Positions 1,656 through 20,979 of a stretch of 64,000 nucleotides of DNA are shown here, piece by piece. A model generated the notes under the pieces. That model saw nothing but the letters and a program-made list of their open reading frames with translations, did not search any database and was not told where the DNA came from. The DNA comes from Sphagnum compactum (lineage: Eukaryota): assembly GCA_965153455.1 (NCBI GenBank), contig OZ234493.1, positions 10,654,213-10,718,212 on the forward strand. Direction: 5' to 3'. Within the stretch, counting starts at the first letter, position 1. Every line of letters begins with the position of its first letter. The position numbers were made by a program, and so were the translations under genes.

Positions 1656-4600
1656 TTAGCTCTCCCTACCCTTCCTCCCCCTAACTCTCTTCATGGGTCA
1701 TGCTCTTCTACATGTGCTAATGTTGCAGATCAAAAGGAGGAAAGTGTAGGGGTAAAACAGCTGAGGATGATGCATTCCCAAAATAAGCACCTGCCCCAAG
1801 GTGGAGCCAAGAGGCAGCTTATTTTGAGAACACCCCCCAATCCTCGGTTGTTACCCAGCATAAAGACCTATGAGAAATCTTTTGTTTAAAAACTCTCACA
1901 ATACCCACCAAGTATCATGGAAAAAAGAGGGCACAAAAATGCACTTTAGAACATATCCTCCAAATGCACTATTGAATTCTTGCTATGTCTTTAGGGATGA
2001 GGGTGGTTGCGAGGCAAGTTGTATGGGAATGGCAAATGTATAATGAATTGGGGTAAAGGACAAACAAGAAAGAGAAGAGTACACTGGAGATGGAAGCCAG
2101 GCTTGGTGAGGGGGGGGGGGGGGGGGGGGTTAGGCTAGCTTAAGAATGAAAGAAAGAAAAAGTGGGAAGCTTGGTTGTGTTAGTGGGCCCTTGTTGCCGC
2201 CGACTATTATCATCCATGTTGTGGACCTGGAAGCAGCAGCCCTGACAAGTGTGTGTCAGAATAGTAAGTAACCTCAGGTTAAAAGGCCTTCTTGCTCTTG
2301 GCTTTTTCTCTCTTTCACTCACCAAAGGTCATATATCTGGAAGCAATCCATACACCAAAAATATTATTATACATTTGTGGTTCCTATTGGGAAAGAGATG
2401 GATCTTTGCCTTGATGTGTCTTTGTTTGTTTGCCCTCCATTTTGTTTGTTAACCCCCCCTTCCCCTCCCCCACCTCCCCCCCCCAAAAAAACATGAATGG
2501 GTCCCATTACCTACTTGTTGTATGGGAACTGTGGAAGCCTTTTGCTAAGCTGGAAAGCTTAAACACATGTTGTTGTTGGATCAGAAGTACGAGCATTTTG
2601 TCTCTTGGGAGTGGTATCTATCAAGCAAGCCTCATCTGGACCTTGCCTTCCCCCTCCCTCACCCCCCTCCTCCCTACCCATTATTATTCTCATTTAGCTA
2701 GAGAGAGAGTTTCCATGGAAAACCATAAAGCTTTGTATTAAGCAAGGCCATGAAGAATCAATCAGATGTGTCTGTCTGCTCATGATAGTCAGTTGCTGCA
2801 TCTTGGTTATAGTGAGACATATATTTATTAATTAATAATGTTATAAATTAATATAATATAATATAATATATATCCTATGACACCAGCCAGCTTTGGCTGG
2901 CATGGCTGAAAGAGTCCCCAATGTGGAAAATAGACAGTGAAACAGAAAATATGTCCACATTGCATGCATGCTTTGTGGCCTTCATTTATACTCTTCCCAA
3001 ATATCAGCCAATCTAGGTATTCTGTACCAAGACCCCCAAGTACAAAGTGACCCCCCAACTCTCCTCCCCAAATTGGCCTTCAAAAACTGGCCCAAGTGAA
3101 TTTTGTTGGACCCAATCGTTACAGCCCCTCTACAAGGTACTGGCATGAAGAAGTTTCGAAGGCCGTAGACTATAAAGTATCCCAAACTGCAGGTACTTGG
3201 CCCCCAGTTTTGTCAAAATTGGGGACAAAATGAGAAGTCGCAATGAAAACTGTACACTGCGGGAAAAGAAAAGAAAAGAAAAGGGGACCAAAACTCTCAC
3301 TTAGATTGCTCCTCAGGGGAATTTCACCCCCAGTTTTGGATTTGCCTTACCTCCTCCGTCTTGAACTGTTAAGTCAAGCCTTAACAGAACAAGACGCTGT
3401 AAATCTTCTGAACTGATACCCAGTTTTGTGAAACAGTACCCAGTTTCACTCACTTTACTGATACTCAAATTATGGATTGAAACAGGGTTTGGAGGGTTAA
3501 ACTAGGGCCCAAAGACACAGTGAGTTTACCAATGAAACTAATGTAAACTTTTTGATAAATTCCAAGATGAGAGAGACTTAAGTTAGGTTTACATGCGGGT
3601 ATCCGGAATCTCAGAATGTTACAGTTAACAGTTCCACTTCATGCAAAACAACAAACCTCAAATGAACTATCTTATCGCTTTAAAGAAACTTCAACTTCAA
3701 GAAAGCTTGGAAGATGCAGAAACCAATACAGATGTAATCCACAAGTACAACACCAGTACTTAGAATTCTTCACACTATGTACAGTACTTATGATCTGCTT
3801 CCTTCACACGTCCAGGGCCGCATATATACTTTTGTTGTACTTATTCATTTCATGAGGTCATCCTGTAAACAACTCTCATTGATAGTAAACTACATTAGAC
3901 CCATTTGACAACTTCCGAGAGTTTCATGTAGCAAAGAATTTGCATGAGAGAAGATCAGTGCTCAGAATAAAGCTGATATGAAAGCTGCTGATAAGAAAGT
4001 GACAGGCTATTTGCATTAACCCCCAAGTTAGTTAGTTAGTTAGGACTGATTCCTTTGGTGAAAATGTTCTTGCAAAAATTTCCACCTTAAAATTTTCTGT
4101 CACAGATTCTCTTTTTTAAACAACATTCTCACCAACTTTTTGAGGGCAAAACAAAAATGCTTGAGAGAATTTCATCACATTTTGACACAGTTTCTAATTT
4201 TTGGGCAGTTCTTTTCACCATTTTTCTACAGCTTGGATAGTTTTCTACAAACATGTTTGCCAATTAATGTTAAACCTTTTTTGGGAGGATTGCTAATGAT
4301 GTTACATCAGAAGACTGGAAAACAAATTTAAAACCGTGCATGTTAGGCAATACTGAATTTAGTACAATACATTTCAGATGGGAAAAGTGTCGGATATTGT
4401 GACAAGCATAAAAATTGTCAGATTGGGAAAGTTTCAGATTCTGTGACTAAGAATAATGTCATTGTTTGCATTGACCTTTTGGATTTGAAGTTTATGCATA
4501 AAAGTCTTCATTTTGCAGTGAAGAAGTAAGTGGTAGAAACTTGTTTTTCTCTCTCATATCACAGGCAGATGATGAGATGGGAGCCTAGTGTGCAAAAGAG

Positions 4601-5464
4601 TTACAATTCGCACTGACACTGCTTCTTCAAACTGAGACTTGGTACCCAACACTGCACACTGCTGCTGGGATCTAGTGGGACTTGTGGGTCTGTAACAAAC
4701 ATACACCCTGGCCCCTCCCAGACAGCAAGCTATCCAACAGCAAGATTCCTGGTACAAGACCAGATCCATATGGTGTCTGTCAACTTCTGATGCAGGGAAG
4801 TCAAAAAATTTTGTTACAGGAGACAGGCTAGAGCCAATTATATATCTCACACACTCTGCCACTTTGTCTTCAAGGCTTTCGACTTTCACCTATGTTAGTT
4901 AGCCAATCATAGGTGATAAACAAGCAAGGCTGTGCAAAAAACACGTGCCCTTTGTTTCACGTCATCATCTGCTGGATGATCTCAATACATTTCACCAATC
5001 TCTAATTCCTCCTTCAGTTTTCATAGTCCAGATTGTCTTGAGGCTTCCGATTTCTTTCTCCAAAGTTGACCCATCAAAGGTCATCATACATCAAAGATGC
5101 ACGCCATTTGTTTTGGGGGTGACAAGAGACTATCGTTTCACACACATGCTGGCAGACACTTTCGGTGGTGAGTTCAGGAATACATTTCTTACATCACGTC
5201 ACACAAAAAGTCTGGAGTACTTTGATTCTCTGCAGTGTAAATCCTAACCGTACTCATGTGCTAGTTTAGTCATCTGGACTCATTCAGTGACCAACTTTCA
5301 GACGGCAAACCCATCAGGGTGTTGCAATAAAAATACAAACCCTCTGACACAACAAAATTATAGAGCATGAGCTTAGTGAGGTGCCTAGGAAAATTTCCAA
5401 GTACCAGGCATATAGACAGCTGTGAAAGATCATCAATTATGCACTGGCAAGACTCTCATTTACC

Positions 5465-5593
5465 TTAATCAGAATGGCATTACAGTCCCAGTTCATCTCA
5501 GTTTTCTTTGCCTACTCTCAATCAGAGTATAGGGTTACAACCCCAGTTCATCTCAGCTTTTTTCTGCCTCCTCTTAATCAGAGTATAGGGTTG
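5465..5593. repeat. Tandem duplication, ~56-bp unit, ~2.3 copies
   Basis: aatcaga...ttaca..cccagttcatctcag...gcct.ctc occurs twice, followed by a third start aatcagagtatagggtt. Confidence 0.8.
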
Positions 5594-5905
5594 TGTTCCA
5601 TGTGAAATGGATGGTCAACACAGAGGACTCCATGTTCTGTACACCCAAAAAAAACCTAGATAGGTTCATGAGTCCCTTTGTACAAATTTCTATGCAACCT
5701 GATGGCACCAGACAGCAAATATGAGGTTGCACAGTGTGACTATCCTTGGATATCTGTGTTTCATTTCTACCCATTTCAGATTTTTGCCTTCCTTAGCTAC
5801 TATCTTTACTCTTACTTTGGTTCTTCCAACTCCTTGTCATGTACTTTGAGATTCAGGAACTATCTCTCTTCTACCTGACCCTTCCCAGAGATCACAAGAA
5901 AATGC

Positions 5906-6053
5906 TTACTGAAAACTGAAATTGGGATCTTGCAACGGCAGTCCTATCTTGCACTGCAATACCTCTCTCTTATATTTGATACGTCCCAGAGATGTTGAGA
6001 AAATCTTACTGAAAACTGAGAAATTGGACTCTTGCAACTGCATTCTGCAATAC
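5906..6053. repeat. Diverged direct repeat, ~100-bp period
   Basis: cttactgaaaactga..attgg..tcttgcaac.gca...ctgcaatac occurs at ~5906 and ~6005. Confidence 0.7.
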
Positions 6054-6120
6054 AGGGTTGTATGCTGGATGAAATGCCACACCTGCAGAACATCTTTCAC
6101 CTTACGTTCTCAAGTAATCT

Positions 6121-7452
6121 TCAAACGTTATACCTTTGACTGCTACTGGTTCCTTGTCCAGAGTCTTGCTGCACATACACTGCCTTGAAAAGATGCTCAT
6201 CTAGGTCATAATTCCACTGCCCATTTGAAACAAGAAGTGCCCCCATGCGGCCAATCTCATAGGCTGATTTTGCTGCAGCACCACATCCTCCTGTGGCAAC
6301 ATACAGCTGAGAATCTTCCCCATGCGGTTTCAGATCCACTGCTTGAATGTAGGGATAGTTGTGGGAGGTGTATGTCACCATGCATGGTTTCCTATGGAAG
6401 GATTTGAATGAGATTTGTGGGAGCAGAGTTTGTAGAGTGTCATGCAATGCATCTGTCTCCACTTGGCGACCATTTTCATCATGGAACCAGTCTGTGATTT
6501 CCTTAGTGCTAGAAGCAACCACTGGCTCCCATTCTGTACCCCCTATCTTGATGTACAACTTTCCATCAGGATACCGAATCGGAGGACATAAGTAAACAGA
6601 ATGCAAATAGGGATGTGATTCCAACCTCCAGATGATAGAAGGCATGCCTTGCAACCTCATCTCTTCCTCATCTCCAATTTCTGCAAGCAGCACTGACACA
6701 AGGTACGTGTGCAGGACCAATTCTTGGCCAGGCAACAGCAGATTTGTATATGCATCGGCACAGATCAAAACCTTGGAAGCAGATAACACTTTGCCTGCAT
6801 CAGTGGTGATGTTCACACCATCTGCAGTCATGTCAATTGCTACAACAGTCTCTGGCACAATACAAGCGCCATGTTTTGCAGCAACTGCCAATTGAGCTCT
6901 GGTCATTGCCCGGGGATTCACATAGCCTGCTCCACCATGCTCCATAATGCCTGCATCCTTCTCCTGGAAGTGCAGGTAAGGAAACCTCTTCATGAGTGCA
7001 TCCCCATCCTCCAGAAGCTCTACAGCTGCTCCATTCTCTTTCCCAACTGCGAAAGCCTCCAGCAAGGAGTCGGTGTGTTGCTTGTAAAAAGGGGTGACTC
7101 TCAAAGACCCAACAGAGGAATGGAACTGAATTCCACTTTCTTGCTCACTCTCTCCATAACTTGCAATAGATCGAGCTGCAAGCATCGACCATACAGGGTT
7201 CTTGTCGACAATTCGAGTGAGACGTCCCTCATCGTAATGGGAACCGAAAACCCCTAAATGGGTTGTCAGATCCGCAGGCTCTGGAGCTCCGATTGCAACA
7301 ACAGAAGAAGACTGCCCCTCCCCACGAGCAGTAATAGAATAGTGGGCAGAGAGATGGAGGCATGCTGCTGATCCTATGGGCCCTAACCCTATCACAGCTA
7401 CAGAATACAAAGCGTCGGCTTTCTTCTTTATACCGGGAGCTGCTTCCGCCAT
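6121..7452 (-). CDS. FAD-dependent oxidoreductase, sarcosine oxidase/DAO (MSOX-like) family, 443 aa, intronless
   Basis: Single long ORF. Rossmann motif VIGLGPIGSAA. AGYVNPRAM motif. C-terminal KPCMVTYT (aligns with the MSOX flavinylation Cys region) and ATGGCGAAAKSAYEIG. Confidence 0.92.
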   Translation of the reverse strand: MAEAAPGIKKKADALYSVAVIGLGPIGSAACLHLSAHYSITARGEGQSSSVVAIGAPEPADLTTHLGVFGSHYDEGRLTRIVDKNPVWSMLAARSIASYGESEQESGIQFHSSVGSLRVTPFYKQHTDSLLEAFAVGKENGAAVELLEDGDALMKRFPYLHFQEKDAGIMEHGGAGYVNPRAMTRAQLAVAAKHGACIVPETVVAIDMTADGVNITTDAGKVLSASKVLICADAYTNLLLPGQELVLHTYLVSVLLAEIGDEEEMRLQGMPSIIWRLESHPYLHSVYLCPPIRYPDGKLYIKIGGTEWEPVVASSTKEITDWFHDENGRQVETDALHDTLQTLLPQISFKSFHRKPCMVTYTSHNYPYIQAVDLKPHGEDSQLYVATGGCGAAAKSAYEIGRMGALLVSNGQWNYDLDEHLFKAVYVQQDSGQGTSSSQRYNV

Positions 7453-8706
7453 ATTTTTCTCTTACAAGCCCCCCGAGTGAAACAGCGATACCGAAAACAA
7501 ACGGAACACATCTAGATATGTGGAACCAAAAAACCCATTTCGTGCTCTGAGCGGAGGACCTCTTCAGACCCTTGAACCACCCACAACGGCGGAGAAGATG
7601 TTTTTCCGACAACAGTGGGACCCATTGCAATTAAGATCATCAAAAGAGACAAGTGCGGTATGCAGATCTCCTGCTGCTCCTTGGACATCAGATGCTAGAT
7701 TCAACTGTGGGTACAATAGACTGCGCATTTTCTTTTGTTCAGTGATCTGAATCAGCTATTACAAACCCATCTTACAGCTACAATCACGAAGCAAGCAAGC
7801 ACTATTTGCAGAGCAATCAAGGTCAGGGTTCAGAGTGGAGGAGCATGCCTGCAGTAGTATTTACCTATACCTGCAATATTCACCTGAATCCAACAAAAAG
7901 GTTGATGGTTCTGAAGCTCATAACAAGATCCACAAATGGCTTTCTTTCCACAAAATGCAACCTGTGATCTAAATAAATGCAACCAGAATTTTGACAGACA
8001 GGTTGTTGGTTCAGAAGTTCATAGTAAGTAAGAAAATGGCTTCCACAAAATTACTGTGTTGCTTGCTTGTCCAACACAACACTGCTCTGGCCTGCACATT
8101 CATAGCTGTGACATACATTGGTGACATACTCGTGGGTGAAATAGACATACATTGGTGAAAAGATGCATGTCACAGTTACATACTCACAGTTATTGCAGAA
8201 TGCTGTCTGCTTTCAGCTTAACTAGTAACACAGACTTTTCTACTGACTAAAACAAACATCCTTCAACCTGGCACACTTCCAGAAACATAATTAATATTGC
8301 AAAACTGAGATGATGATTTGAACAGTGAGTAAGGCAAATGAATGAAAATCCCATAAAGGATTATTGTCTTAATTACCAACTAATTTCCCTTATACACCTG
8401 CATCAGGATGACATAAACCACTGCTGTTAGGTTACTTGGTCATTTTAAATGTGACTAGTGGTGTGGATCCTCTAAATCTGCCAAACTCTACTGGTTTTGA
8501 TAGAAGAAAATCTTTGAATAGGATTACTGAATTCCATATGGTTCACCAGGCAGCCTATTTGCCTACAAAACTCTGGACCTGAGTGGAACTCCAAGAGTAG
8601 TTAACAACCCAAAATTGTGTGCTCATGAATACAATTTTCAGAATCAAAATAGGCTCTGAATCCTCTTGCACATTACTATATGCTTCTCTACATGAACAAT
8701 GGTTTC

Positions 8707-9933
8707 TCAATGGCTCTTAACATACTCCTGAATTACATTCAGTCCTTCAGTCTCCTCCCCATAGTCCTGAAAACCCAGCAACAAGGGAATTGCCCCATTC
8801 CACATTTTAGTAACCAACCACAGAATCTGATCAATCAATTCTCCAACTTTGTCACAGTTGGTTCTATAAACTGAATCAAAAGCCAAAAACAGGAAAAACT
8901 TGAACCCAGATGAACACCCCCAAAACTATGTCAAAGAAATTCATACCTTCACAACCACACAAGAACAGCCCACCACCTTGCGAGCCTTGCCCTCTGAATC
9001 AATCTTGCAAAGCTGCACATTACCAACAGAACATAAAGGCTCCTAACAGATGCCTTAAAACAAAAAAGTCGGAGGACTCAACCAGTGGACTATCAATGGG
9101 CTCCCCAGTGCTCAATGCCTTCTTCATTTTAAGACAGTCATCCTCCAATTCTACCCCAAGAGCACAAGTTGATTTGACAACCCTATCTCTCTCACTGGAG
9201 TTCTTCTCATTTCAAGATGCATCAATGACCATGGCTAGTTGAAGTCTGTTTCTCAGTAAAAAAAAGTGGACATTTCCATATATTGCAGTGCAATGAAATG
9301 TGAAGACACAATCCTTAAGTGTACCGGTGATGAGATGGCTTACCCCAACCCATTCACCCAGCTTCTTGGCACTAGGCACAGAGATGAGGTTAACATTGTG
9401 CTCTGAGCAGAGAGCTTGGACCAGCTTAGAATAATCAGGCTGGTTGCAGTCCTCAGCCAAAACACATAGCTGGGCAGCATGCTTCTCAATTGCCTTTGCA
9501 GCCTCATGAAGGCCGCGTGCAAGACCATCATGGGCCAGGGACTTCTTCAACACAAGCTGCAGACCAGTCAGGATATCCATGGGCTCCCCCAATACAGGCT
9601 CAGCTGCGACCACTGGCTTCTCAGCCACTGCATCTGCAACTGGCTCCTCCCTATATATTGCAAACCATTATGGACTTCTTCAATAATAGTATTCTAGAGA
9701 TTTTGAGTTTTTGTGCTCCTAACTAGTACACTGCATATCTATTCATGGTACCATATATTGCATGTCTACTGGCACTGCTCCATATCTGATGAGAACAAAC
9801 TCTCATCTCATGCCTTAGACGTCAGAGAGTTCTTCAACATACAACCCTAAAATCCATTGCTAGAAAAGGTCTGTCCCTAAAGTGGTAAAAAGAGAAAGAA
9901 ACACAAGGAACAAGAACCTTACCCGTCTGACAT
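8707..9933 (-). CDS. RPS12: 40S ribosomal protein S12 (eS12), 147 aa; exons 9933-9923, 9650-9344, 9012-8947, 8766-8707
   Basis: All introns are GT-AG and in phase (11+307+66+60=444 nt). Protein [12 protein letters not shown]...[17 protein letters not shown]...[49 protein letters not shown] 5'UTR intron is probable, with donor CAG|GTCCGT near 10358. Confidence 0.97.
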
Positions 9934-10672
9934 GGTTATCCAATGTGTGAAAAAGACTTATATATCTGCCTGCACGCTCAGAACGCCATACCAAGTCAGA
10001 AACAACAGAGAGGATCTGCAAACAAAGAGACAAGAAAGCATTCCCGATTTTGAACCCAGAAAACCGGCTAGCAGGGGTTTCTATCCAGGACTAGAGACCA
10101 GACCAAAACGTGAACAAACAGGAGCAGATTCGCAACAGGGAGACTATTGAAGAACACAGGAAACAAGTTATGAACAAAGAAAACTCAACAACATCCAACA
10201 ACAAGGGCAGAATTTGACCTGCAAAGCTCCGGAAAGAGGAGGAGCCGGTTGGGGCGAACAACAAGAAGTTCCCCAAAAAAAAAGCGAAGGAGGAAGATGA
10301 TAATCCAAGAGAGAAGCTGCCACAGAACGAAATAACAACCAGGTGTGCTGAGACGGACCTGATGGAAGTTGGAGAACGTCGGAGGAGGCCGAGCGAGCGA
10401 CAGAGGAGCGCGCGTCTGCTGCACGACACTAAGCCAGCAAGAGAACGACGACCTTTTGGCCAAAGCGCAAGCTTTTATGGTTCCGAACCTACTAATTACT
10501 TACTAATTTTCTCACTAGTTTTTAGAGTTCCTTAAAACCCACTCATTCAGTGTTGTTTTTTTTTGGCGAATTTTGGCCACGTTAAAAAGGGCCTGCTGAT
10601 TGGCCGGAAGGATTTTGAGCCGCAGGACCTTAAAAAACCGTCATTGCAATTTTTGGCATGCAATTTGTCTTA

Positions 10673-10896
10673 TGGTGCATTCACACTTGATGTTAAATCA
10701 ATGTTAAATGAAAATCTAGGTGGCATCCTACGTGACACCTAATGTTAAATGGGCGATAGCTTTAACATAGTTAATTGTTAAATGAATCTTAGTTTAAGAT
10801 AAAATATTCACAATAAGTAAGTTTAAGTCTTAAATGACTAGTATGATGTTAAGGGACTTAGCACTAGAGACCCTGACACAAAATGTGAATGCACCT
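10673..10896. mobile_element. PIF/Harbinger (Tourist-like) MITE
   Basis: TIR GGTGCATTCACA/TGTGAATGCACC. TTA on both flanks (10670-10672, 10897-10899). 224 bp. Confidence 0.8.
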
Positions 10897-13800
10897 TTAT
10901 GTAACTAAGGTAAAAATTAGTTGCATGTGTCGTGTGTAACTAAAATTTAGTTGCAAACAACAATTGTGAAAGACAGATTTTCTACTAAAGTATGTTAATG
11001 TAATTAATTTTTAAAGCCCTTTAATGAATTGGGTTAGTGAAATAAATTCACCTTTTGTAGTAGTGCATGCATTGAACTTTGGAGTTTGAAAAGCAATTTT
11101 TTTTTTGCTTCTACTTCTTTTTGAACTTGAAGTTTGGAGCTAGGAGTTCCAAACCATGGTTAAAGCAAAAAACATTTTCTCTTGACCTCCAAAATTCAGT
11201 GCCAAAGTTTGAGTTAGGAACTTCAAACTTCAAACCACAATTGACAAACAAAAAATTTGGAGGCCAAACTTTGCTCCTAACGCCAAACTTTGGAGGTAGG
11301 GAGCAAATAATTTAATTGCATGTTTGAAACATTACTATGTTTGTGAATTCTTAAATATCGACATATTAGAGACTAGAATGTTGCAAGTTGCAACAATATT
11401 AATTTCTAAAGTGCAACTTGACATAACACTCATTGTCAAGGTTTTTCACTAATCTCAATGTTCACTATTTTTTCTTGTTTACATATTTTAGTTTCCTTTT
11501 AAAGTTTGATCCCACTTGTCTACAAATGTTGAATGTTGGGAATGTTATGCATGTTATTTAAAACCTAAATCTTTAATTTTAATGTTGTGTGAATCCTATG
11601 TGTTTGCAACCTTGAGTTTTATGTGAAGTGCATGTGCGATGTGTTGAAATCTAAACATTTATGTTTATTGTGCATACCTAAGTCATTTTAAGGTTTTGTT
11701 TCTTGATTACAATAGCCTTCAAATTCCAACAATTTTAAGTTATGTCTTTTTTTTAGGTCCTTTGTAGTCACCAATCCTTTTCATAACAATGCAAACCTCA
11801 ATTCTTCAAGCATTTGTTGTGGACAACTATGAATAGTCTTGTTGAATTTTACATTGAACGAATATTGTTGTAGTTTTTTGTTTGTTGTAGTAAATGGCAA
11901 TTCCAACCTTAGGTTTATCTCTCTCTATTTTCAACATTTGTGAACAACCGCAAAAACCCTTGTTAGTCACCAACCATAGTTAATGGATAGTTTGCCAGAT
12001 GAAGAAGAATTACATCATTTACTTATGGACAACTAACCATCAACAAAGTTTGTAATATGTCAATGGAGGAAGAACAATGGATATGAACCATAAGACTAAA
12101 CAATGTAATTGTTTGGAAGGTGATGATAAATTGGGATTCCTTAATGATCTTGCAAAAGCACATTTGAAGATGGTTTGTGCATGAGTGTAAAGCTTGAACT
12201 TGGAGTTTTAAGCTTGGAACTTAAAACTTAATGTGATTTTAATCCACCTACATGGATGAATATGTTCATAGATGAATGATTTCATATGGATGAATTTCAC
12301 TTATGATTTGGATTAAATAAATAAATTATTGATGAAATTCATCCATGATTAAAAGATAAATAAATTGAAATTTATTTATATCCATCCTCATTTGTTGTCC
12401 AACTATTAATATCAAATTTGAATGTCATTTAATAATGATGGATAACTTCGTTAATGGTTCTTAAAATTTTCAAATAACTAGTTTTGATATATAATTGTGG
12501 TTCTCAAAAATTATATACAAAATAAAATAACCACCAAATGACTACCCGTTCTTTGCCAATTTTTTCATGGAAATTATTGGTAGTTTTTAAGGTTTTTGAA
12601 ATAACCAGAATTGGTGATTCTTTGATTTTGAAATAACCTGAACTAGTGATTCAATGATTCTAAAATATTCAAAGAACCAAAATCAGTAGTTCTTTAAAAC
12701 AATCACACAACACTAGTTTGAACTTCTATTTTATGTGGAAAATTTTGGGGTTCTTCTTCTTTTGTTTATGTTATTCCTTCCTTCAATTATGTGTGGAACA
12801 TAAAACATCAACCATTTTTTTTCGTTATATCTTTTGGGCCTTCATTAAGCAAAGATGGAACGAATTACAACACAATGCATTATAGTAATTTTCGGCCGAA
12901 AGAACGTACCCGCCAATTTGGCAACCTAACTTCCACTAGTCGGAAGTTACTCTATAAGTTTTTTTTATAAAATTATCATTCTTTTTTTTTTTAAAATTTC
13001 CTCCTCTTTTTCATTTTTCATTTTTTTATTAGGCCTTGATTTTTTTTAACAACAAATTTAGTCAAAATTGTGACAATGCATTCATTGGGTTTACAAGAAT
13101 GAAAGTCATAAAAAATAATTTAAATGGAATAATTAAATAATTAAATAAAACCCAAGATCAACAAATAAAAAATGAATCTTACTATTTTTCGAAATACTAT
13201 GCTACTTGGATAAAAATGATTAATAGAAAGACTATGGATTAGAACACTTAAAGTGTTCTCTATTTGGATTCCATTCCACCAATCCCCAAAACCCAAGGCA
13301 ATATTCCTAGAAACCATCCTAGAAAACCCAAGGCAACACTCTCAAAAAAATCCAAAAAACCTCCTAGCAATCATAACCCAAAACAATGTTCCAAAAAACA
13401 TTTCAAAAAACCATCACTCAATGCAATGTTCCTAGAAATCCTCCCAATAATAAACCATCACTAGACAATATTGTAAAGAACCCAACATTGATCTCTCAAC
13501 AACCCAAACCCTCAACATTTTCATGAAATCCAGAATTTTATCTTAAACAATCATCCTATCCACATTCTCCCCTAAACCTTTATTATGCAGGTATTACAAA
13601 TACATTCTTACATAACAAAAAACTTCGGAATAATTAAATGATTATAAAAACTATCCAAAAAATTCAAAAAAATTCTATTGAAATAAAAAAAATTCTACTT
13701 ATCAACTATGTCTAGTGGCATTAAACTAAGGATAGATTTTGGATCTACAACATAATTGATGGTAGTAGGTCAGTTTTGAAAATGTTTGAACATGTGGCTA

Positions 13801-14356: not shown

Positions 14357-16409
14357 CTTGGTTTTTTCAAATGTAGCTTTATCTTCGCTAAATGCTTCTT
14401 CATATCTCAACAAATGGCCATCTTTTAATTCACCATTTATGATTTGTTACATTGCCTTATCACTTAAATGCTTATCAATCTAGTCATATTTACACATAGA
14501 ACAAAAAAAACAACTCAGGCACATCAACAAATGGGGGAAAAAATCAAACAAAACACAAAGCAAATCAAAATAAAAAACAAATATTGAAACAAAACAAACA
14601 ATAGATCAAAAAAAAAGTTAGTACATTAAGTTCCCATATGAAATTGGGTCCATGTGACCCATAACCTCCATACTCTACTCTCAAGGAACCAAAACCTCCT
14701 CCATACAAGTAATGTCAATACCTTTGCCCATTTTGTTAAACAAGAAATTTTCTTTCAATTCAAAAAAGTTAGCAATAAGAATATCCATAATAAGTTGTAG
14801 TTGATTGTGACCAATTGTAGATGTTGTAAACCATACTTGATTTGATGCCTTCCACTTAGGAGTAATGTGTAAGAAAAGTGGATGCAGCCCAAGTTTGTCA
14901 TCACAACACTTGGTAAGATAACACCAAATTAACTCTTTGTAAGTAGAAATGGCATCATCAACATGACAATCAATTGCAAGACGATGGCAATGTGTAAAAC
15001 ATCTAGTGATATCGATGCACTAGTTTTTGAAACTCCTTGACAAAACTTAAGAACAACACCATTAGGTAACGACCATAAAGCAAACTTGTCAAAATCAACA
15101 TTGTGAAGTTCAAAACACCCTTTGATGAAAAAAATGTGAATGTAGAAATATTTGAATATAATATTCAAACCAAATGGATATTTAGGTTAACATATTACTT
15201 GTGCTAACATTCATCATTCCTTTTTGATGGACGACATTTCAAATTTTTTGATAACCTTCCCAAATCCACTCGATAATGATAGATAGTTGCTTCATCCTTT
15301 GGCAACCTTAACCCAATGGTACCTTGATCAAAGAAGATTTTAAACGAAATTCAAATGCCTACCAAATTCAACCACATGTTGCTCTTGCCTTTTCCATATC
15401 ATTTGTCCAATACTTGTTATCAAAGACTGGATGCTACAAAAATAACACAAAGAAAAAATAACAACAAAACACAAATGTTGCAAACAACAGACACCCTAAA
15501 CCCCGCACTAATAACAAAAATAACAAAAACCATAAACCATAGAACCTCTTTCTAAACAAAAGAAAGATTAAGCCTTAAACCCTATTTGCAAACAATAAAA
15601 ACAAAAGGCAAAAACAAGAGCTCAAAATTTTGAAAAAAAAAAAACCTTGTTGGAGGGTATAAGTTAATGGTTTTTTAAAAAAATTGCAGCACAAATGAAA
15701 ATAACATGTCCTCCAAATCTAAAATAAATTATTCATTTTCAAACAAATCTACAATTGATATTTGTAAATCAAAACATTAAAACATTCACCATTCATCAAA
15801 TGCATTATTTGCCCAAAGTTCAACATGTTTACTTGTTCTCTAACCTCCTCAGTTCACATTTGCCATCTTTTTTTTTTATCAATATCCAAAAAACAAGACT
15901 TCGATAATGGCTTCTTAACATGAGGTTCACATTTAGCCCCCTCAATAATGTCAGATCCAAAAATAGCAGGTTCATAGAGCTGCTATGATCAATGTGATCA
16001 AAAGTAAGAACAACCTCATAAACATTTTAAAAATCAAATGTAAAAGCAGAATCATTGGCATCAAAATCTTCAAGACTCGAAAGAATAGAAAGGTCAAAAG
16101 AAAGCACAAACATACCCACATCTCCTTCATGATTCAACTTGGGAGAATTAATAGGAAATTCTATAGGAGATTCATGCAAGTAATTAACATATTACATATA
16201 AATCTCACTTTCATCATTAGACCACAAAAATTCATCACCAAAATTAGTGGTGATTATTGGTGTAAGTAATCCAACAAGAGAGGATCCAAAAGCCTTTAGG
16301 TTTAGCAACTAACTAGGAGGAGTACTTGCAATAGGTAAAGTATCTTTCAAAATTTCAAAACAAGATTTGCAGAACCTTCATTATAAACCTTTTTCATAAT
16401 AGTAGACAT
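14357..16409 (-). pseudogene. Decayed Crypton-like tyrosine recombinase (DUF3504-type) gene with introns
   Basis: Manual translation gives RTSKHVELWANNAFDEW...LEDMLFSFVLQ..KTINLYPPT. A GT-AG intron (15645-15434) follows in frame, then SIQSLITSIGQMI...PKYPFGLNIIFKYFYIHIFFIKGCFELHN...YLTKCC..HPLFLH..VWFTTSTIGHNQL...NKMGKGIDITCMEEVLVP*E*SMEVMGHMDPISYG. An inferred intron (14630-14490) then leads to KYD. Many stops and frameshifts. Confidence 0.8.
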
Positions 16410-16970
16410 TGTTAAAAAAAAAACAAAACAAAAAATGAAAGGAAAAAAAAGAAAAAAATCATTAAAACAAAAAAATAATATAAAATCCAAATGAATTGCA
16501 TCTACACAACATATCAAACAAAAAAACTTTGAAACATGTGAAACCAAAACTAGAACACAACAACTTGCACAAATTAAACAAAGAATTAATGAAACAACCA
16601 AATAATTTCAATAACATAGCAAGACACAAAAAAAACAAAACAATGCAAAAAGAAAGGAAGATGAGAGTAGAATCATAAGAGTGGTGCAAGCAAAATGCGA
16701 AAACAAATGCCATGTCAATGTGATGTAGTTACAACGAACATGAGATGCAAAAACAATCATCATGTCAACACAATGTAAACAAGAAATGTAGAGGTGGATG
16801 GAAATGGCATGATTCAAGTAGACAGACATAGATGTGAACAAAAACGAACACGAAGATACCACATAGATCAAAATAATAATTTGCCAACTCGAAAAATTGA
16901 AAACCCTCACAACGTAATTAACAAAAACAGAAAGGCAAAGCAAAACAAAACCAAAAAATAAAGAGAAAAC

Positions 16971-17790
16971 CCCCTAAAAATTACAAAGAAGCTAACAACG
17001 AACATTGTTGGTGATGATCACTAGTCTAGAAGTCATAACACCAAGTGCAACAACAATGTACCAAACAAAGAACAAGAGAAAGCCAACATTACAATGCAAT
17101 AAAAAAAAAGAACAAAATTAAAACATAACCAAAAATATAAAGAACAAGCTCCCTGAAAATTGCGAAGAAATAAATAGTGAACATTTTTAGTGATAATCAT
17201 CGACACAAAAATCACAACACCAAGCATAACAACAATGCACCAAGTAAAGAAAAAAACAATGCTAACATCACAAAGAGCGAAAGCACAAGAACAAAGTTAA
17301 AAACAAAAACAAAAAAATGAAGGAGTGCCCTAAAAACTAGGAAGAAATAGACAACACCAAGCGTAGTAACATGTCAAAAAAATAAAAATAAATAAACTAC
17401 CATCATGACACAACAAAATCAAAAGAATGAACCTAAAATAAAACAAAAAAAAATGAAGAAGGACCGCGCTAAAGACTAGGAAAAATAAACAACACCAAGC
17501 ACAATAACAACATACCAAGCAAAGAAAAAAAAGAGCTACCCTCACAACACAACAAAAACAAAAAAACAAACCTATAACAAAACAAAACCAAAAGTGAGGA
17601 AAGACTGTTCTAAAAGCTATGAAAAAATAGACAACACCGTGCACAATCGCAACATGCCAAGCAAAGAAAAAAAAAAAGAGATACCATCATGACACAACAA
17701 AAGCAAAAGAACAAACCTAAAACAAAACCCAAAAAAATGAGGAAGAAACACCCCTAAAATTGTGAAGAAGCAGGCAGTGAGCAATGATCT
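16971..17790. repeat. A-rich degenerate tandem repeat, 140-180-bp units, ~6 starts
   Basis: Unit starts (ccctaaaa...gaagaaa...acaacaccaagc) near 16971, 17151, 17328, 17467, 17608 and 17751. Confidence 0.7.
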
Positions 17791-18654
17791 CCAACGCCGA
17801 AAGGAGCCAAGCCTCTTACTCTATTCGGTAGGTAAGATGATTGAAAGATGCGACAAAAAGCAGAAAGGTGTGAAAGAAAAAAAAACACCGACACATTATG
17901 CAAGTGAAGGGCCTTTTCCTAGACCCTTGTTGTGGACATAGTTGATTCCACATTCTAAACTCCACATTTGTAAAATATTAATTTGGTTTCATTAGTCACC
18001 CAATGATGTCAATTGGTGATTAGGCCTCTCTTTTTTCCCTAGTTAATTTCTAACTAATCATTTATTAATGACATATTAAGAGCTGAGTTGTTTGCAATTG
18101 CAGGGAGAGGAAATTTAAGGAGAGAATTTATACACACAAAGTTGTTGCAATTGACAGGAAGAAGCCCTCTTTTTTTTATGCACACAAAAGTTGTGGGGAT
18201 GTTGAGCACCAGGCTTTCATTGCTGCAGTTGATTTCTGTACATTGCACTTTGCTGAAACTGCTCAACAAATGATGCCAGTTCTTGCAAAAAGATTTTGGC
18301 AAGGATTTCAATGTTGCACCATGACAACCTAGCTCACCTTCTATTACCAACAACTTTCAACTTATCAACTTTTTATCTTTCTTCTAATTTGCCAGCTTCT
18401 ACTTTCCCTGAAACCAAACAAAATCCCTTGCGAGCTATTGAAAGTGCCTAATGGGTAATGCTGATTTTAATGGCCTTTAACAACACCTGTAGAATTGAGC
18501 AACAATTGTCCCAAACACCTAACATTTACATGCTACTCACAAGCTTTTGCCTCCTGGCATCCTCCAGTCTTTTAGCAACACAGAAAAACAGAAACTGTTG
18601 TGGAGGTTTTGATAGTAAGAATCGTCCCAGAGTAGCACATTTGTTATTTTGCCT

Positions 18655-20979
18655 TCACACCTCTTCCTGATGGCTGTTGTTGCCATGAATGATGTTATGT
18701 TTGCACAGAGGACATGTGGCATTGATGCGCAGCCACTTATCAACGCAGCTTGCATGAAAGTGATGACCACATGGAATCTCCCGCACCTCCACTTCATCTT
18801 CATACTGAGAGAGGCAGATGCAACATTCCTGCACATCTAACAACTGCAATTCAGAGGTGCTGTCCATTTGGTTGCAGTAAGACAACATCTTAAAAGCACC
18901 AAAACATGATTAGTCCCTCCTAATGTGCAAGTGTGAGGAAAATGCGTTCATCAATACATCACCTCCTTCATCACCAGTAGGTCACTGGACCTGTTATGAG
19001 ATGAGATGTGCAATCAACAAACATATATCTTGACCTAACTACATACCGCATCCTCGCCAGCTATGGCACGCTCAGTCACCCTGTCTGAAGATCCCATCAA
19101 ACTCATCACCCCTGTGAAAGCTCCTGTCTTCACCACAATAGAGTTGTTGCTGCCAGTGCGCCGGAATTTGTACTTATCCAGTGCATTGATCTCTTCCTCT
19201 GATGCACCCTCCTGAGTAAGGGCCAAAACTGGAATGAGTTGGAGAGATAGTCATCTATAGAAAATCCTCAGTGCTTCTACCACATATGAAGATATCTGAG
19301 GCATGCTTCAACATCTCTCCTGGCGTAAACTGCTTTGCAAACTCTGCAAGACATGTTCCAGCATATGCAGACACTGTACCATGCTGCTTCTAGCATCATC
19401 CAAATTTTGAACCAGCAACAAAGTTGCAAGTGATAACAGAGTCTTCATTCAAGCATATGAACTCTTGGGACAGGCATTCGATAAGCTCTCTGAAACTCCA
19501 GAAAGGACAGCACTGCTAGATAGGTGGAATTAGTGACCATGGCCTCATCTCCTTCTATGAAGGAGAAAATCACTGCATCACAGGGAAGACCTAAATCTAT
19601 TACTGGCTATTAAATGTGGAAAAAAATAGAGACATGAATAATTCACCTCTTCAGCAACTGCATAGAGGATGGCAATGATACAGGGGAGGCAACAGCAGAC
19701 AGCAATGCCAATGACAAATGCCAATGCAACGCAGAACACCACAAAGAGCACATCAAATGCCAAAAACACCAAACACAGCCTGCAGATCCAATAAGCAACA
19801 GATCATAAATCACAACAAGAGCAGCCCCCAAATCTATTCTCAGTGCATGTCTAAGGAAATTTCTGAAATAGCTGAAAAATAATTTAACTGCCCCATTAGT
19901 CTATCATCTCCTATTGAAATATTTACTACAGAAGTACTCATCAGAGCTAGGTTGTCAATGGAAGTGAACTCCAACAGAGATGTGGAGGTGTTTGCAGGTT
20001 TCCTCACCAGTAAAGGTATGGAGCCTCATTGATAAGCTCTTCACCTCCAGAAATGATCAAATAGGACCCAAACATCCACCATACAAACGAGAACATGGTG
20101 TTGCCAGACTCCAACCGCTTCACTAAGCTGCATGCCAAAGGTTTCAAAAATGAGAATACAGATCAGAAACTTTCTATAAGTGTGTACCGATTGCCATTCT
20201 AGCTTTTCCACCATTTGCAACTGAGACAGGTGCAATAGGTGCAGCTTGAAAGCATCCCTAGTCCCAAATGGTGAAAATCACCACTGCCAGCTAAATTTGC
20301 TGCATTTGACCAGTATCTGAAATTTTCCAGTAGAGTTAGAAGCAAATTGCGATGAGCATTTGTAAAGAGCACAAGTTTCTCGCATAAATTGGCAAGAGTT
20401 AAAACACCTGGTGTCAGCATTTTCACCACCGGCTGAATCCACAGCCTGCATAGAGTCATGTGATAGGGATGTCTCCACTGGTGTATCAGAAGGTGTAGCA
20501 GCACGCCGCCGACGCCGCCGCCTATACTCCAAGGAGACACAAAGCATGTGCACAATGCATTGCAAAGCATAACCTACAATCCACAAGCGCAATGGCACCT
20601 CGGGTCTCTCATCCCTGCTCAAAATCACCACTGCTGTGGCCACCAGAAGAAATGCTAAATTCCACAGCAGATCCAACAGTACGACTGGCCTGGAGTAAGC
20701 CCAATCATTCTGCCGCTCCTCAAGATGTGCTGCAGCTGATTCACGTACTTGCCTGGATGGCGCCCTGTTGAGCCCCCTGCTCCCTGCCCTCCTCAGGTAC
20801 CTGACAGCTCCTTGAACTCCACTTCCACTACCACCGCTGCTTCCAGTGCCTCTGGTTCTCCCACCCACAAGACTTGAGCTACCAATGTTGGAGATTCCAG
20901 TGCCATCGTTGTCAGTCACTAGGGGTGTTGTGATGAGATCCTCTGAGGAAGAATCAAAGATTACTCTTTCTCTGTCCAT
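18655..20979 (-). CDS. Transmembrane RING-H2 E3 ubiquitin ligase (At1g12760/At1g63170-like), 387 aa; exons 20979-20408, 20127-20008, 19779-19647, 19211-19047, 18828-18655
   Basis: All introns are GT-AG and in phase (572+120+133+165+174=1164 nt). Motifs [66 protein letters not shown], and RING-H2 ECCICLSQY...[25 protein letters not shown]. Confidence 0.96.

What the first reader, a model, noticed from the sequence alone, without database searches (positions are those of the whole stretch)
6121..7452. Intronless sarcosine-oxidase-like gene with non-plant motifs: horizontal transfer candidate
Seen: an intact 443-codon ORF without introns, beside intron-rich host genes. Known: plant and animal SOX/PIPOX and Bacillus MSOX carry a GSSHG-type motif after the Rossmann fold. 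This protein instead has IGAPEP...GVFGSHYDEGRLTR, PPIRYPDGKLYIKIGG and GGCGAAAKSAYEIGRMG. From memory these typify a poorly characterised family in bacteria and some invertebrates. There is no SKL-type PTS1 (the protein ends RYNV). Inference: an acquired amine/amino-acid oxidase of unknown substrate, integrated in the plant chromosome and therefore not contamination.
Basis: partly seen in the sequence, partly recalled or inferred. Interest (0 to 1): 0.7.

Follow-up and report, generated by a model that had tools for sequence, protein, structure and literature searches.

The report
Ancient bacterial-type amine oxidase in moss
A peat-moss gene for a sarcosine-oxidase-like flavoenzyme is real, intronless and expressed, but it is an old gene shared with other mosses, liverworts, lycophytes, a fern and a sister alga, whose nearest relatives are Chloroflexota bacteria.

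Summary
An intact 443-codon ORF (6121-7452, minus strand) is transcribed as an unspliced polyA mRNA of about 2.1 kb, next to a spliced ribosomal protein eS12 gene. The protein is a DAO-fold, MSOX/MTOX-like flavoprotein. It keeps the covalent-FAD cysteine, the O2-activating lysine and the carboxylate-binding Arg/Lys pair. It falls far below the curated cut-offs for MTOX and MSOX/PIPOX.

It is not a recent acquisition. Orthologues occur in Sphagnum, Ceratodon, Physcomitrium, Calypogeia, Diphasiastrum, Selaginella, Psilotum and the zygnematophyte Spirogloea. They form one clade (100/99) whose branching follows the species tree. The nearest relatives are Litorilinea-type Caldilineae (94/96).

A clade of all named eukaryotes in the family is rejected (p-AU 0.0013). 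Outgroup rooting, however, cannot exclude a root on the streptophyte stem (p-AU 0.39 and 0.69). Only clock-like rooting puts the root inside bacteria.

Best reading: one ancient bacterium-to-streptophyte transfer, vertical descent, and no seed-plant copy seen. The substrate is unknown. Interest is modest.

The parts
6121..7452 (-). Coding sequence of the 443-aa DAO-fold, MSOX/MTOX-like flavoprotein amine oxidase (stop codon included)
   Evidence: ORF. Pfam DAO PF01266, E 1.4e-26. AF2 model pLDDT 88.7. Foldseek best hits are MSOX, MTOX and NikD.
7453..7551 (-). 5' untranslated leader (approximate). In related Sphagnum sequences a 2-bp insertion at 7457 puts an upstream ORF in frame, giving predicted products of 496-497 aa.
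   Evidence: RNA coverage and the end of the metatranscriptome contig at 7551, and the TC insertion behind 7457 in two contigs. P0002 and cluster members of 496-497 aa.
5444..6120 (-). 3' untranslated region (approximate, about 680 nt)
   Evidence: Continuous polyA RNA-seq depth down to the 5402-5602 bin. Contigs end at 5444 and 5447.
7372..7395 (-). Rossmann dinucleotide-binding motif VIGLGPIG (residues 20-27)
   Evidence: Translation. Aligned to VVGAGSMG of MSOX.
7213..7254 (-). GVFGSHYDEGRLTR (residues 67-80). R77 and R80 align with MSOX Arg49 and Arg52. Y73 replaces MSOX His45.
   Evidence: Alignment A1, invariant columns. Profile alignment to 1el5.
6538..6585 (-). PPIRYPDGKLYIKIGG (residues 290-305). 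K302 aligns with MSOX Lys265. The following T306 replaces MSOX His269.
6367..6390 (-). KPCMVTYT (residues 355-362). C357 aligns with MSOX Cys315, the covalent 8-alpha-S-cysteinyl-FAD site.
   Evidence: C357 is invariant in 20 of 20 aligned sequences. Aligned to C315 of 1el5.
6241..6291 (-). GGCGAAAKSAYEIGRMG (residues 388-404). K395 aligns with MSOX Lys348 (carboxylate binding).
8216..10426 (-). Neighbouring host gene for ribosomal protein eS12, with introns at about 8766-8945, 9013-9343, 9650-9921 and 9969-10217 (alternatively to 10357)
   Evidence: Joints with CT..AC ends on the + strand, supported by 20-128 reads. Pfam Ribosomal_L7Ae. PDB eS12, E 4.8e-45.

Best explanation
The gene encodes a functional, probably cytosolic, covalently flavinylated amine oxidase of the MSOX/MTOX structural class. 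It belongs to a distinct, uncharacterised subfamily.

By analogy with MSOX, it would bind an N-substituted (secondary-amine) alpha-amino acid through its carboxylate (R80/K395). It would then oxidise the C-N bond with FAD attached to C357, and reoxidise the flavin with O2 (K302) to give H2O2. The substrate is not known and is probably not sarcosine itself, because His269 and His45 of MSOX are replaced.

Evolutionarily it is not a Sphagnum novelty. [quoted passage not shown] No seed-plant copy was seen, and the Physcomitrium copies look as if they are decaying.

Its origin is most likely a single ancient horizontal transfer from a Caldilineae-like (Chloroflexota) bacterium.

- **Shown:** the ORF, expression, absence of introns, fold, conserved catalytic residues, the streptophyte clade and its bacterial neighbours.
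- **Inferred:** enzymatic activity, covalent flavinylation, cytosolic location and the direction of transfer.
For: **Gene and expression**
- Intact ORF.
- Unspliced polyA transcript of the minus strand.
- Five related Sphagnum-type loci hold intact, uninterrupted ORFs. They are collinear over window 10428..3229 at 94-96% nucleotide identity.
- dN/dS is 0.14-0.40.
- The protein keeps 70 of the 72 columns that are at least 90% conserved among 85 relatives.

**Fold and family**
- Pfam DAO, E 1.4e-26.
- AF2 model pLDDT 88.7, pTM 0.89.
- Foldseek: MSOX, MTOX and NikD at E about 1e-27, target-normalised TM 0.80-0.87.
- Profile against PDB: MSOX 1e-21 over the full length. C315, K265, R49, R52, K348 and Y254 of MSOX align with invariant C357, K302, R77, R80, K395 and Y287.

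**Distribution**
- Named orthologues come from Sphagnum spp., Ceratodon, Physcomitrium, Calypogeia, Diphasiastrum, Selaginella, Psilotum and Spirogloea.

**Trees**
- FastTree of 342 rows: the plant clade has support 99, its sister is 7 Litorilinea-type Caldilineaceae (95), and both lie inside a 54-tip Caldilineaceae group (90).
- Careful IQ-TREE of 87 rows: streptophyte clade 100/99, joined with the Litorilinea group 94/96, embryophytes 100/99, mosses 100/98 with Sphagnum sister to the other mosses.
- With 7 outgroups the streptophytes lie inside Chloroflexota behind branches of 97, 95 and 96.
- The AU test rejects a clade of all named eukaryotes (lnL 90.18 lower, p 0.0013).
- Clock-like (MinVar) rooting ranks the streptophyte stem 136th of 169 and 143rd of 145 candidate root branches.

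**Breadth in bacteria**
- 342 representative clusters score E <= 1e-30.
Against: **Rooting**
- Outgroup rooting does not establish that the plant clade is nested in bacteria.
- With all 63 bacterial rows held together, so that the outgroup attaches to the streptophyte stem, the tree is only 2.56 lnL worse (p-AU 0.386).
- With 7 outgroups, the tree holding the 62 non-streptophyte family rows together was 7.81 lnL better than the quick free tree (p-AU 0.691).
- The direction of transfer therefore rests on clock-like rooting, breadth of distribution and absence of introns.

**Sampling and labels**
- Only 8 of the 23 streptophyte-clade rows in the careful tree carry an organism name. The rest are unnamed transcript-sized contigs.
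- The tracheophyte (92/52) and bryophyte (80/48) branches are weakly supported.
- The eukaryote group in the AU test was named after a tree had been seen.

**Function**
- No activity is known for any member of the subfamily.
- Gene neighbourhoods in 8 bacterial loci are not conserved and give no clue to the substrate.
- MSOX His269 and His45 are not conserved.
- The Sphagnum protein differs at two near-invariant positions (R32L, P56A) and carries an insert of about 10 residues after the first helix.
- The dN/dS values rest on only 9-19 differences per class.

**Distribution**
- Absence from seed plants and chlorophytes is inferred only from their absence among the 120 best hits.
Confidence: 0.7

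Rival explanations
1. Recent, Sphagnum-specific horizontal acquisition from bacteria. This is the reading implied by the first-stage note.
For: The gene is intronless and lies beside an intron-bearing host gene. Its family is mainly bacterial.
Against: - The best bacterial identity is only 47-51%. Other mosses are 60-64% identical, and a liverwort, a lycophyte and a fern are 55-56%.
- The protein sits inside a streptophyte clade with 100/99 support that branches like the species tree.
- GC3 of 44% and CDS GC of 48% are not bacterial-like and are close to the flanks at 41-43%.
Confidence: 0.02
2. An ancient eukaryotic gene, inherited vertically from an early eukaryote and lost in most lineages. 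Bacteria, animals, Amoebozoa and streptophytes would each keep descendants, with no transfer into plants.
For: - Other eukaryotes carry family members: Balamuthia, Owenia and Branchiostoma, and a mollusc-rich cluster in the ESM Atlas (a lead only).
- Outgroup rooting cannot exclude a root on the streptophyte stem.
Against: - The AU test rejects a single clade of the named eukaryotes (p 0.0013).
- The animal clade sits next to a gammaproteobacterium, while streptophytes sit next to Caldilineae.
- Streptophytes are much closer to Litorilinea-type sequences (about 50% identity) than to other bacterial groups (35-41%). Accordingly, the streptophyte stem is among the worst clock-like root positions.
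- No chlorophyte or seed plant appears among the 120 best hits.
Confidence: 0.1
3. Transfer in the opposite direction: from an early streptophyte to a Caldilineae-like bacterium, followed by spread among bacteria.
For: The trees with the root on the streptophyte stem are not rejected (p-AU 0.386 and 0.691).
Against: - It would require the whole bacterial diversity of the family to be younger than the streptophyte stem. That diversity comprises at least 568 loci in species genomes of Chloroflexota, Actinomycetota and Pseudomonadota and 342 clusters at E <= 1e-30.
- Bacterial branches are deeper than the streptophyte stem, which measures 0.27 against 0.5-1.0.
- MinVar rooting disfavours it.
- The plant gene is intronless.
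- From general knowledge, eukaryote-to-bacterium transfers that spread this widely are rare.
Confidence: 0.05
4. Bacterial contamination or an assembly artefact.
For: None beyond the bacterial affinity of the family.
Against: - The gene is covered by polyA RNA-seq from the organism.
- It lies about 760 bp from a spliced eS12 gene on the same contig.
- DNA runs of three studies with the same organism label hold 70-100% of the words of 5400-8400; four of the rows may be the source sample.
- The same protein lies on 18-20 Mb contigs of three named Sphagnum species.
- Five independent metagenome contigs are collinear with the window across the gene and both flanks.
Confidence: 0.01

Closest known systems
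Monomeric sarcosine oxidase (MSOX, Bacillus; PDB 1el5, 2gb0)
   Same: - Same two-domain DAO fold: Foldseek E about 1e-27, target-normalised TM 0.82.
- The profile alignment covers the full length at 1e-21.
- The following MSOX residues align with conserved residues here: the Rossmann motif, Cys315 (covalent FAD), Lys265, Arg49, Arg52, Lys348 and Tyr254.
- The roles of these residues are recalled from the MSOX literature. PDB entry titles (R49K, Lys265Met, His269, Y254 mutants, 'covalently flavinylated') confirm only that they were studied.
   Different: - Only 20-22% identity.
- His269 is replaced by Thr306 and His45 by Tyr73.
- TIGR01377 scores 61 bits against a cut-off of 479.65.
- The subfamily has its own invariant motifs: SHYDxGRxTR, PPxxYPDGK..K.GG and GGCGAAAKS.
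N-methyl-L-tryptophan oxidase (MTOX, SolA of E. coli; PDB 2uzz)
   Same: It is the best-scoring NCBIfam model (NF008425, 101.5 bits, residues 16-419). It has the same fold, with target-normalised TM 0.87.
   Different: The score is far below the equivalog cut-off of 257. Identity is 20%. SolA lies on a very long branch as the outgroup.
Plant and animal peroxisomal sarcosine/pipecolate oxidase (PIPOX; At2g24580-type)
   Same: Same Pfam family (DAO), and presumably the same general chemistry. This is recalled from memory; no At2g24580 sequence was available from the tools.
   Different: - No PTS1: the protein ends RYNV.
- It fails the soxA_mon subfamily model.
- The nearest relatives are bacterial Caldilineae, not other eukaryotic oxidases.
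- A direct tree with At2g24580 was not made.
Catalogued ancient bacterial-to-streptophyte HGT families (e.g. Yue et al. 2012; Ma et al. 2022; Dong et al. 2025)
   Same: The pattern matches: a gene shared by streptophyte algae and land plants, with bacterial nearest relatives and patchy later loss.
   Different: - A term search of the main text of Yue 2012 (PMC3493653; terms oxidase, FAD, oxidoreductase, Chloroflexi) returned only an unrelated 'FAD-linked oxidase' assigned to CFB bacteria.
- Ma 2022 is not held.
- Supplementary Data 8-11 of Dong 2025 are not held.
- I therefore could not tell whether this family is already listed.

Membership tests
MSOX/MTOX-class covalent flavoprotein amine oxidases (Pfam DAO, PF01266) | Two-domain DAO/GR2 fold with an N-terminal GxGxxG FAD-binding motif | tested here: met
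   Pfam DAO 94.3 bits against a cut-off of 27.9. AF2 pLDDT 88.7. Foldseek E 1e-27 to MSOX and MTOX. GLGPIG at residues 22-27.
MSOX/MTOX-class covalent flavoprotein amine oxidases (Pfam DAO, PF01266) | Cysteine that forms the 8-alpha-S-cysteinyl-FAD link (MSOX Cys315) | tested here: met
   C357 aligns with C315 of 1el5 and is invariant in 20 of 20 sequences. The covalent bond itself cannot be tested with these tools.
MSOX/MTOX-class covalent flavoprotein amine oxidases (Pfam DAO, PF01266) | Oxygen-activating lysine (MSOX Lys265) and the carboxylate-binding Arg52/Lys348 pair, plus Arg49 | tested here: met
   K302, R80, K395 and R77 align with these residues and are invariant. Their roles are recalled from the literature.
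MSOX/MTOX-class covalent flavoprotein amine oxidases (Pfam DAO, PF01266) | Active-site histidines of MSOX (His269, His45) | tested here: not met
   They align with T306 and Y73.
N-methyl-L-tryptophan oxidase equivalog (NCBIfam NF008425) | Score at or above the curated cut-off of 257 bits | tested here: not met
   101.5 bits
soxA_mon subfamily: MSOX/PIPOX (NCBIfam TIGR01377), to which At2g24580 is recalled to belong | Score at or above the curated cut-off of 479.65 bits | tested here: not met
   61.1 bits. MSOX-like paralogues in Caldilineaceae genomes score 158-299 bits and fall in the outgroup.
soxA_mon subfamily: MSOX/PIPOX (NCBIfam TIGR01377), to which At2g24580 is recalled to belong | C-terminal PTS1 of the peroxisomal plant and animal enzymes | tested here: not met
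   The C-terminus is ...SQRYNV. Orthologues end in HV, ET and EET. Only Psilotum ends in AKL.
soxA_mon subfamily: MSOX/PIPOX (NCBIfam TIGR01377), to which At2g24580 is recalled to belong | Groups with At2g24580 in a tree | not tested
Gene of horizontal (bacterial) origin in streptophytes | Integrated in the host chromosome and expressed | tested here: met
Gene of horizontal (bacterial) origin in streptophytes | Nearest relatives outside the recipient clade are bacteria of one lineage, with support | tested here: met
   Litorilinea-type Caldilineae: 95, 94/96, 93.
Gene of horizontal (bacterial) origin in streptophytes | Recipient clade nested within donor diversity in a rooted tree | tested here: inconclusive
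   It is nested with outgroup roots. The AU tests do not reject a root on the streptophyte stem (p 0.386; p 0.691). MinVar rooting places the root far from it.
Gene of horizontal (bacterial) origin in streptophytes | Eukaryotic members are not one clade, so the gene is not simply an ancestral eukaryotic gene | tested here: met
   AU test: holding the named eukaryotes together costs 90.18 lnL, p 0.0013.

The most novel reading that the evidence does not exclude
[quoted passage not shown] It would have been kept under selection for over 500 million years in bryophytes, lycophytes and ferns, and lost in seed plants. It would encode a new plant enzyme activity: a covalent-flavin oxidase for an N-alkylated amino acid that canonical SOX/PIPOX does not handle, perhaps a compound of microbial or soil origin.
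Probability: 0.25. Interest if true: 0.5.

Novelty: new member of a known kind. Interest (0 to 1): 0.35.

Why it matters
If the ancient-transfer reading holds, this adds one more bacterial enzyme to the set of genes acquired around the time plants moved onto land. It would have a clear donor lineage (Caldilineae). Its retention pattern is striking: kept in non-seed plants, not seen in seed plants, and apparently decaying in Physcomitrium.

The subfamily is large. It has at least 568 loci in bacterial species genomes and is also found in marine invertebrates. No member has a known substrate, so a biochemical assignment would annotate thousands of genes.

For the scan itself, the main lesson is a caution. 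An intronless, bacterial-looking gene in a moss need not be a recent acquisition. The polarity of such transfers can also rest on weak rooting.

Tried and rejected
- **Whole-genome search of the window's assembly.** No genome is held, so paralogues such as the moss's own canonical SOX could not be sought.
- **Bacterial gene neighbourhoods as a clue to substrate.** I scanned 58 ORFs around 8 loci (8 of the 80 loci kept) against Pfam.
  - There is no conserved operon.
  - Two Caldilineaceae loci share GNAT plus LPG_synthase_TM upstream.
  - Two Rhizobiaceae loci lie beside the mraW-ftsI cluster.
- **Rooting with a single outgroup (E. coli SolA).** The branch is very long (6.18) and the AU test was indecisive.
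- **Rooting with six added MSOX-like paralogues from Caldilineaceae genomes.** This was still indecisive. Two of eight candidate outgroup ORFs (L087, L095) were dropped because my ORF picker took the wrong frame.
- **Literature.**
  - Six full-text searches found no paper that names this family as a transferred gene.
  - The one 'sarcosine oxidase' HGT hit (PMC9667741, passages read) concerns a Chlorella SoxA and Sphaerobacter, which is a different case.
  - The Plant Cell 2025 review PMC12448838 has none of the four terms searched.
  - A search for the MSOX residue literature found nothing.
- **Earlier findings of this scan.** Nothing by place or by sequence.
- **ESM Atlas.** It gave only family-level look-alikes, with a mollusc-rich eukaryotic cluster first. 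I used this as a lead only.
- **NCBIfam.** No curated model covers this subfamily.
Full report
**1. The observation**

The window holds an ATG-initiated ORF of 443 codons at 6121..7452 on the minus strand. It is the longest of the 31 stop-to-stop frames of 90 aa or more in the first 24 kb; the next longest has 238 aa. The protein ends RYNV, so it has no PTS1.

**2. It is a real, expressed, intronless nuclear gene**

- DNA runs with one organism label, from three studies, hold 70-100% of the sampled words of 5400-8400. Four of these rows may be the source sample.
- I laid a polyA RNA-seq run of that organism on 5000-11000. About 12% of the run was read and 821 reads were laid.
  - It covers 5402-7612 without a gap at depth 10-16.
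  - Every first mate lies on the + strand, which for the usual stranded libraries means a minus-strand RNA.
  - No joint lies inside this stretch.
- Metatranscriptome contigs from moss and plant metagenomes cover the same span. One contig of 2132 nt spans 5444-7551 with 50 differences.
- The mRNA is therefore about 2.1 kb and unspliced, with a 5' leader of about 100 nt and a 3' UTR of about 680 nt.
- Immediately upstream on the same strand, at about 8216-10426, lies a gene with four introns.
  - The joints are 8765/8946, 9012/9344, 9649/9922 and 9968/10218, with 9968/10358 as an alternative.
  - All have CT..AC ends on the + strand, supported by 20 to 128 reads, plus 5 reads for the alternative.
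  - Its main exon matches ribosomal protein eS12 (PDB 8r57_M, E 4.8e-45; Pfam Ribosomal_L7Ae).
- I scanned 119 open frames of 75 aa or more from the whole window. Besides the oxidase, only three hit Pfam: eS12, a RING finger at 18658-18909 and a DDE_1 fragment at 40114-40398.
- The 90% cluster of the closest database protein holds 443-aa proteins of Sphagnum jensenii, S. troendelagicum and S. balticum on contigs of 18-20 Mb. The window is therefore from a peat moss.
- Five metagenome contigs are collinear with the window from 10428 to 3229 at 94-96% nucleotide identity. This span includes the eS12 gene.
- Contamination is excluded.

**3. What the protein is**

- Pfam assigns DAO (PF01266, E 1.4e-26, residues 18-403).
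- NCBIfam gives only sub-threshold matches: MTOX 101.5 bits (cut-off 257), soxA_mon 61.1 bits (cut-off 479.65) and L-pipecolate oxidase 23.2 bits (cut-off 600).
- A profile of 20 family members matches MSOX (1el5) over its full length at 1e-21, MTOX at 3e-15 and NikD at 5e-13.
- An AlphaFold2 model built from that alignment has mean pLDDT 88.7 and pTM 0.89.
- Foldseek finds MSOX, MTOX and NikD first: E about 1e-27, target-normalised TM 0.80-0.87, 18-22% identity.
- In the profile alignment, several MSOX residues align with residues of this protein.
  - Cys315 aligns with C357, Lys265 with K302, Arg49 with R77, Arg52 with R80, Lys348 with K395 and Tyr254 with Y287.
  - All six are among the 45 invariant columns of the 20-sequence alignment.
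  - MSOX His269 and His45 align with T306 and Y73.
- The roles of these residues are recalled from the MSOX literature: covalent FAD link, oxygen activation, carboxylate binding. PDB titles confirm only that they were studied. A full-text search for that literature found nothing.
The motifs are subfamily signatures, not a different architecture.
- There is no N-terminal extension before the Rossmann motif relative to the bacterial members, and no PTS1. A cytosolic location is therefore inferred.

**4. Is it under constraint?**

- The protein keeps 70 of the 72 columns that are at least 90% conserved among 85 relatives. It differs at R32L and P56A.
- It carries a Sphagnum-specific insert of about 10 residues after the first helix, where model confidence is lower.
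- All five related loci have intact ORFs.
- Against the window, dN/dS (Nei-Gojobori) is 0.14-0.40, from 9-17 nonsynonymous and 12-19 synonymous differences. This indicates purifying selection, but the counts are small.
- The CDS differs from these loci at 28-30 of 1332 sites, about 2%. The collinear loci as a whole, CDS included, differ by 4-6%.

**5. Relatives**

- The word-index search found 770 proteins at E <= 0.001 among 8000 scored candidates, of which 120 were listed.
  - After the 96% Sphagnum cluster comes a set at 60-64% identity, including Ceratodon purpureus.
  - Next come Psilotum nudum (56%), Calypogeia fissa (56%), Diphasiastrum complanatum (55%) and Selaginella moellendorffii (48%).
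  - Then comes Litorilinea aerophila (50%), followed by many Caldilineaceae and metagenome proteins at 39-50%.
- No seed plant or chlorophyte name appears among the 120.
- The exhaustive representative search found 1332 clusters at E <= 0.001 and 342 at E <= 1e-30.
  - Its second hit is a 1763-aa Spirogloea muscicola (Zygnematophyceae) gene model. This model fuses a CID-domain protein with the oxidase domain.
- The cluster of P0083 holds Physcomitrium patens A9RIJ1 / PHYPA_014992.
  - The best are Caldilineales and Caldilineaceae at 44-49% identity.
  - Other Chloroflexota, Acidimicrobiia (Poriferisodalis), Rhizobiaceae and Paracoccaceae follow at 33-44%.
- Three further eukaryotes turned up among the representatives: Balamuthia, the annelid Owenia and Branchiostoma.

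**6. Trees**

*FastTree.*
- The input had 342 rows: all fetched proteins of 330 aa or more, the 80 translated bacterial loci and E. coli SolA as outgroup. The cluster members P0122-P0157 were left out.
- The seven named plant rows have a most recent common ancestor of 25 tips (support 99).
- That group joins Spirogloea and P0018 (99), then 7 Litorilinea-type rows (95), then a 54-tip Caldilineaceae group (90). Beyond that lie further Chloroflexota grades.

*Careful IQ-TREE.*
- It used 87 rows and 400 columns under LG+C20+F+G4 (PMSF). P0002 and the three rows P0034, P0083 and P0063 (331-341 aa, two of them frameshifted-looking Physcomitrium-type copies) were left out.
- Supports, given as ultrafast bootstrap / SH-aLRT, were:

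| Branch | Support |
|---|---|
| Streptophyte clade (23 rows) | 100/99 |
| Streptophytes plus Litorilinea group | 94/96 |
| Embryophytes | 100/99 |
| Tracheophytes | 92/52 |
| Bryophytes | 80/48 |
| Mosses, with Sphagnum sister to the rest | 100/98 |

- Only 8 of the 23 rows carry organism names. The others are unnamed transcript-sized contigs.

**7. Polarity: what is and is not shown**

- Holding the 63 bacterial rows together, so that the outgroup attaches to the streptophyte stem, costs only 2.56 lnL (p-AU 0.386).
- I then added six MSOX-like paralogues from two Caldilineaceae genomes as further outgroups, together with the animal and Balamuthia rows.
  - The quick tree (81 rows) roots among Actinomycetota, Pseudomonadota and unnamed rows.
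  - It places the streptophytes inside Chloroflexota behind branches of 97, 95, 96 and 93.
  - An 11-row clade that includes the two named animal rows (Owenia, Branchiostoma) sits next to a gammaproteobacterium.
- Even so, the tree that holds the 62 non-streptophyte family rows together was 7.81 lnL better than the quick free tree (p-AU 0.691).
- Outgroup rooting therefore cannot exclude a root on the streptophyte stem.
- Clock-like (MinVar) rooting of the ingroup puts that branch 136th of 169 and 143rd of 145 candidates. Its root-to-tip CV is 0.40 and 0.49, against 0.16 and 0.17 for the best branches, which lie inside bacteria.
- Holding all 15 named eukaryote rows together against the 43 named bacterial and outgroup rows costs 90.18 lnL (p-AU 0.0013). 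The streptophyte gene therefore has a different history from the animal and amoebozoan ones.
- Direction from bacterium to plant is thus the most parsimonious reading, not a demonstrated one. It rests on four points:
  - the breadth and depth of the family in bacteria;
  - the proximity to one bacterial lineage;
  - the absence of introns;
  - the polyphyly of the eukaryotes.

**8. Function**

- Bacterial gene neighbourhoods are not conserved across 8 loci and 58 ORFs.
- No curated family or solved structure covers the subfamily.
- I commit to an H2O2-producing, covalently flavinylated oxidase of an N-substituted alpha-amino acid.
- It keeps the MSOX catalytic frame, but its substrate pocket is altered (His269 to Thr, His45 to Tyr). 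Sarcosine is therefore not assumed to be the substrate.

**9. Comparison with what is known, and novelty**

- Ancient bacterial genes in streptophytes are a known kind.
- The gene is already annotated, without a name, in Sphagnum, Ceratodon, Physcomitrium, Selaginella and others.
- A term search of the main text of Yue et al. 2012 returned only an unrelated FAD-linked oxidase.
- The two largest catalogues could not be inspected: Ma et al. 2022 is not held, and Supplementary Data 8-11 of Dong et al. 2025 are not held. Cheng et al. 2019 is not held either.
- Six full-text searches found no paper on this family as a transferred gene.

**10. Verdict**

- It is wrong in its implied recency.
- This is a new member of a known kind, of modest interest.

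Noticed in passing
Alignment A2: P0312, P0083 and P0309 against P0001 residues about 306-350: The Physcomitrium patens-type copies (A9RIJ1 and relatives) go out of register directly after the KIGG motif. They lose the invariant W322/F323 block, and two of them never regain the frame. This looks like a frameshifted, decaying gene in that lineage. It may explain why P. patens-based HGT screens missed the family.
   Followed up: partly
window 7453-7630 (minus strand); insertion behind 7457: In related Sphagnum sequences a 2-bp (TC) insertion just upstream of the ATG puts a leader ORF in frame. Databases therefore hold 496-497-aa 'long' forms (P0002, P0124, P0132). In the window the leader is out of frame, which argues that it is a 5' UTR and not coding sequence.
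   Followed up: partly
window 9968-10358 (minus strand): The eS12 gene has two alternative joints in its 5' UTR. The joint 9968 to 10358 has 20 reads and the joint 9968 to 10218 has 5 reads in the polyA run.
   Followed up: no
P0158 (Spirogloea muscicola, 1763 aa): This gene model fuses a CID/CTK3-domain protein (residues about 660-790) with the oxidase domain (1334-1717). It is probably a merger of two neighbouring genes in the annotation.
   Followed up: partly
P0278 (Owenia), P0231 (Branchiostoma) and 9 unnamed rows; tree: An 11-row clade (99) that includes the two named animal rows and 9 unnamed rows sits next to a gammaproteobacterial sequence (L059), far from the streptophytes. This may be a second, independent transfer into marine invertebrates. 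The ESM Atlas also shows a mollusc-rich cluster.
   Followed up: partly
L002:6226-7945 and L004:6248-7992: In two Caldilineaceae genomes a GNAT acetyltransferase and an LPG_synthase_TM protein lie directly upstream of the oxidase on the same strand. This arrangement was not seen in the other six loci examined.
   Followed up: no
L018 and L062 (Rhizobiaceae), about 9850-13700: The oxidase lies beside the mraW-ftsI end of the cell-division (dcw) cluster in two Rhizobiaceae genomes.
   Followed up: no
window 40114-40398 (+) and 18658-18909 (-): There is a fragment of a DDE_1 transposase (a pogo/Tc1-like remnant) and a RING-H2 finger exon. These were the only other Pfam hits in the window.
   Followed up: no
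window 26001-38000 and 16001-18000: There is a very AT-rich stretch (GC 24-29%) without long ORFs. The 16-18 kb block has a strong AT skew of 0.47.
   Followed up: no
window 4865/4866: All five related metagenome loci carry about 100 extra bases at this point relative to the window. This is an indel downstream of the oxidase 3' UTR.
   Followed up: no
window 7613-8215: One contig of 3682 nt from a library labelled RNA spans the intergenic region, where the polyA run has zero depth. Either DNA is carried over in that library or there is read-through.
   Followed up: no
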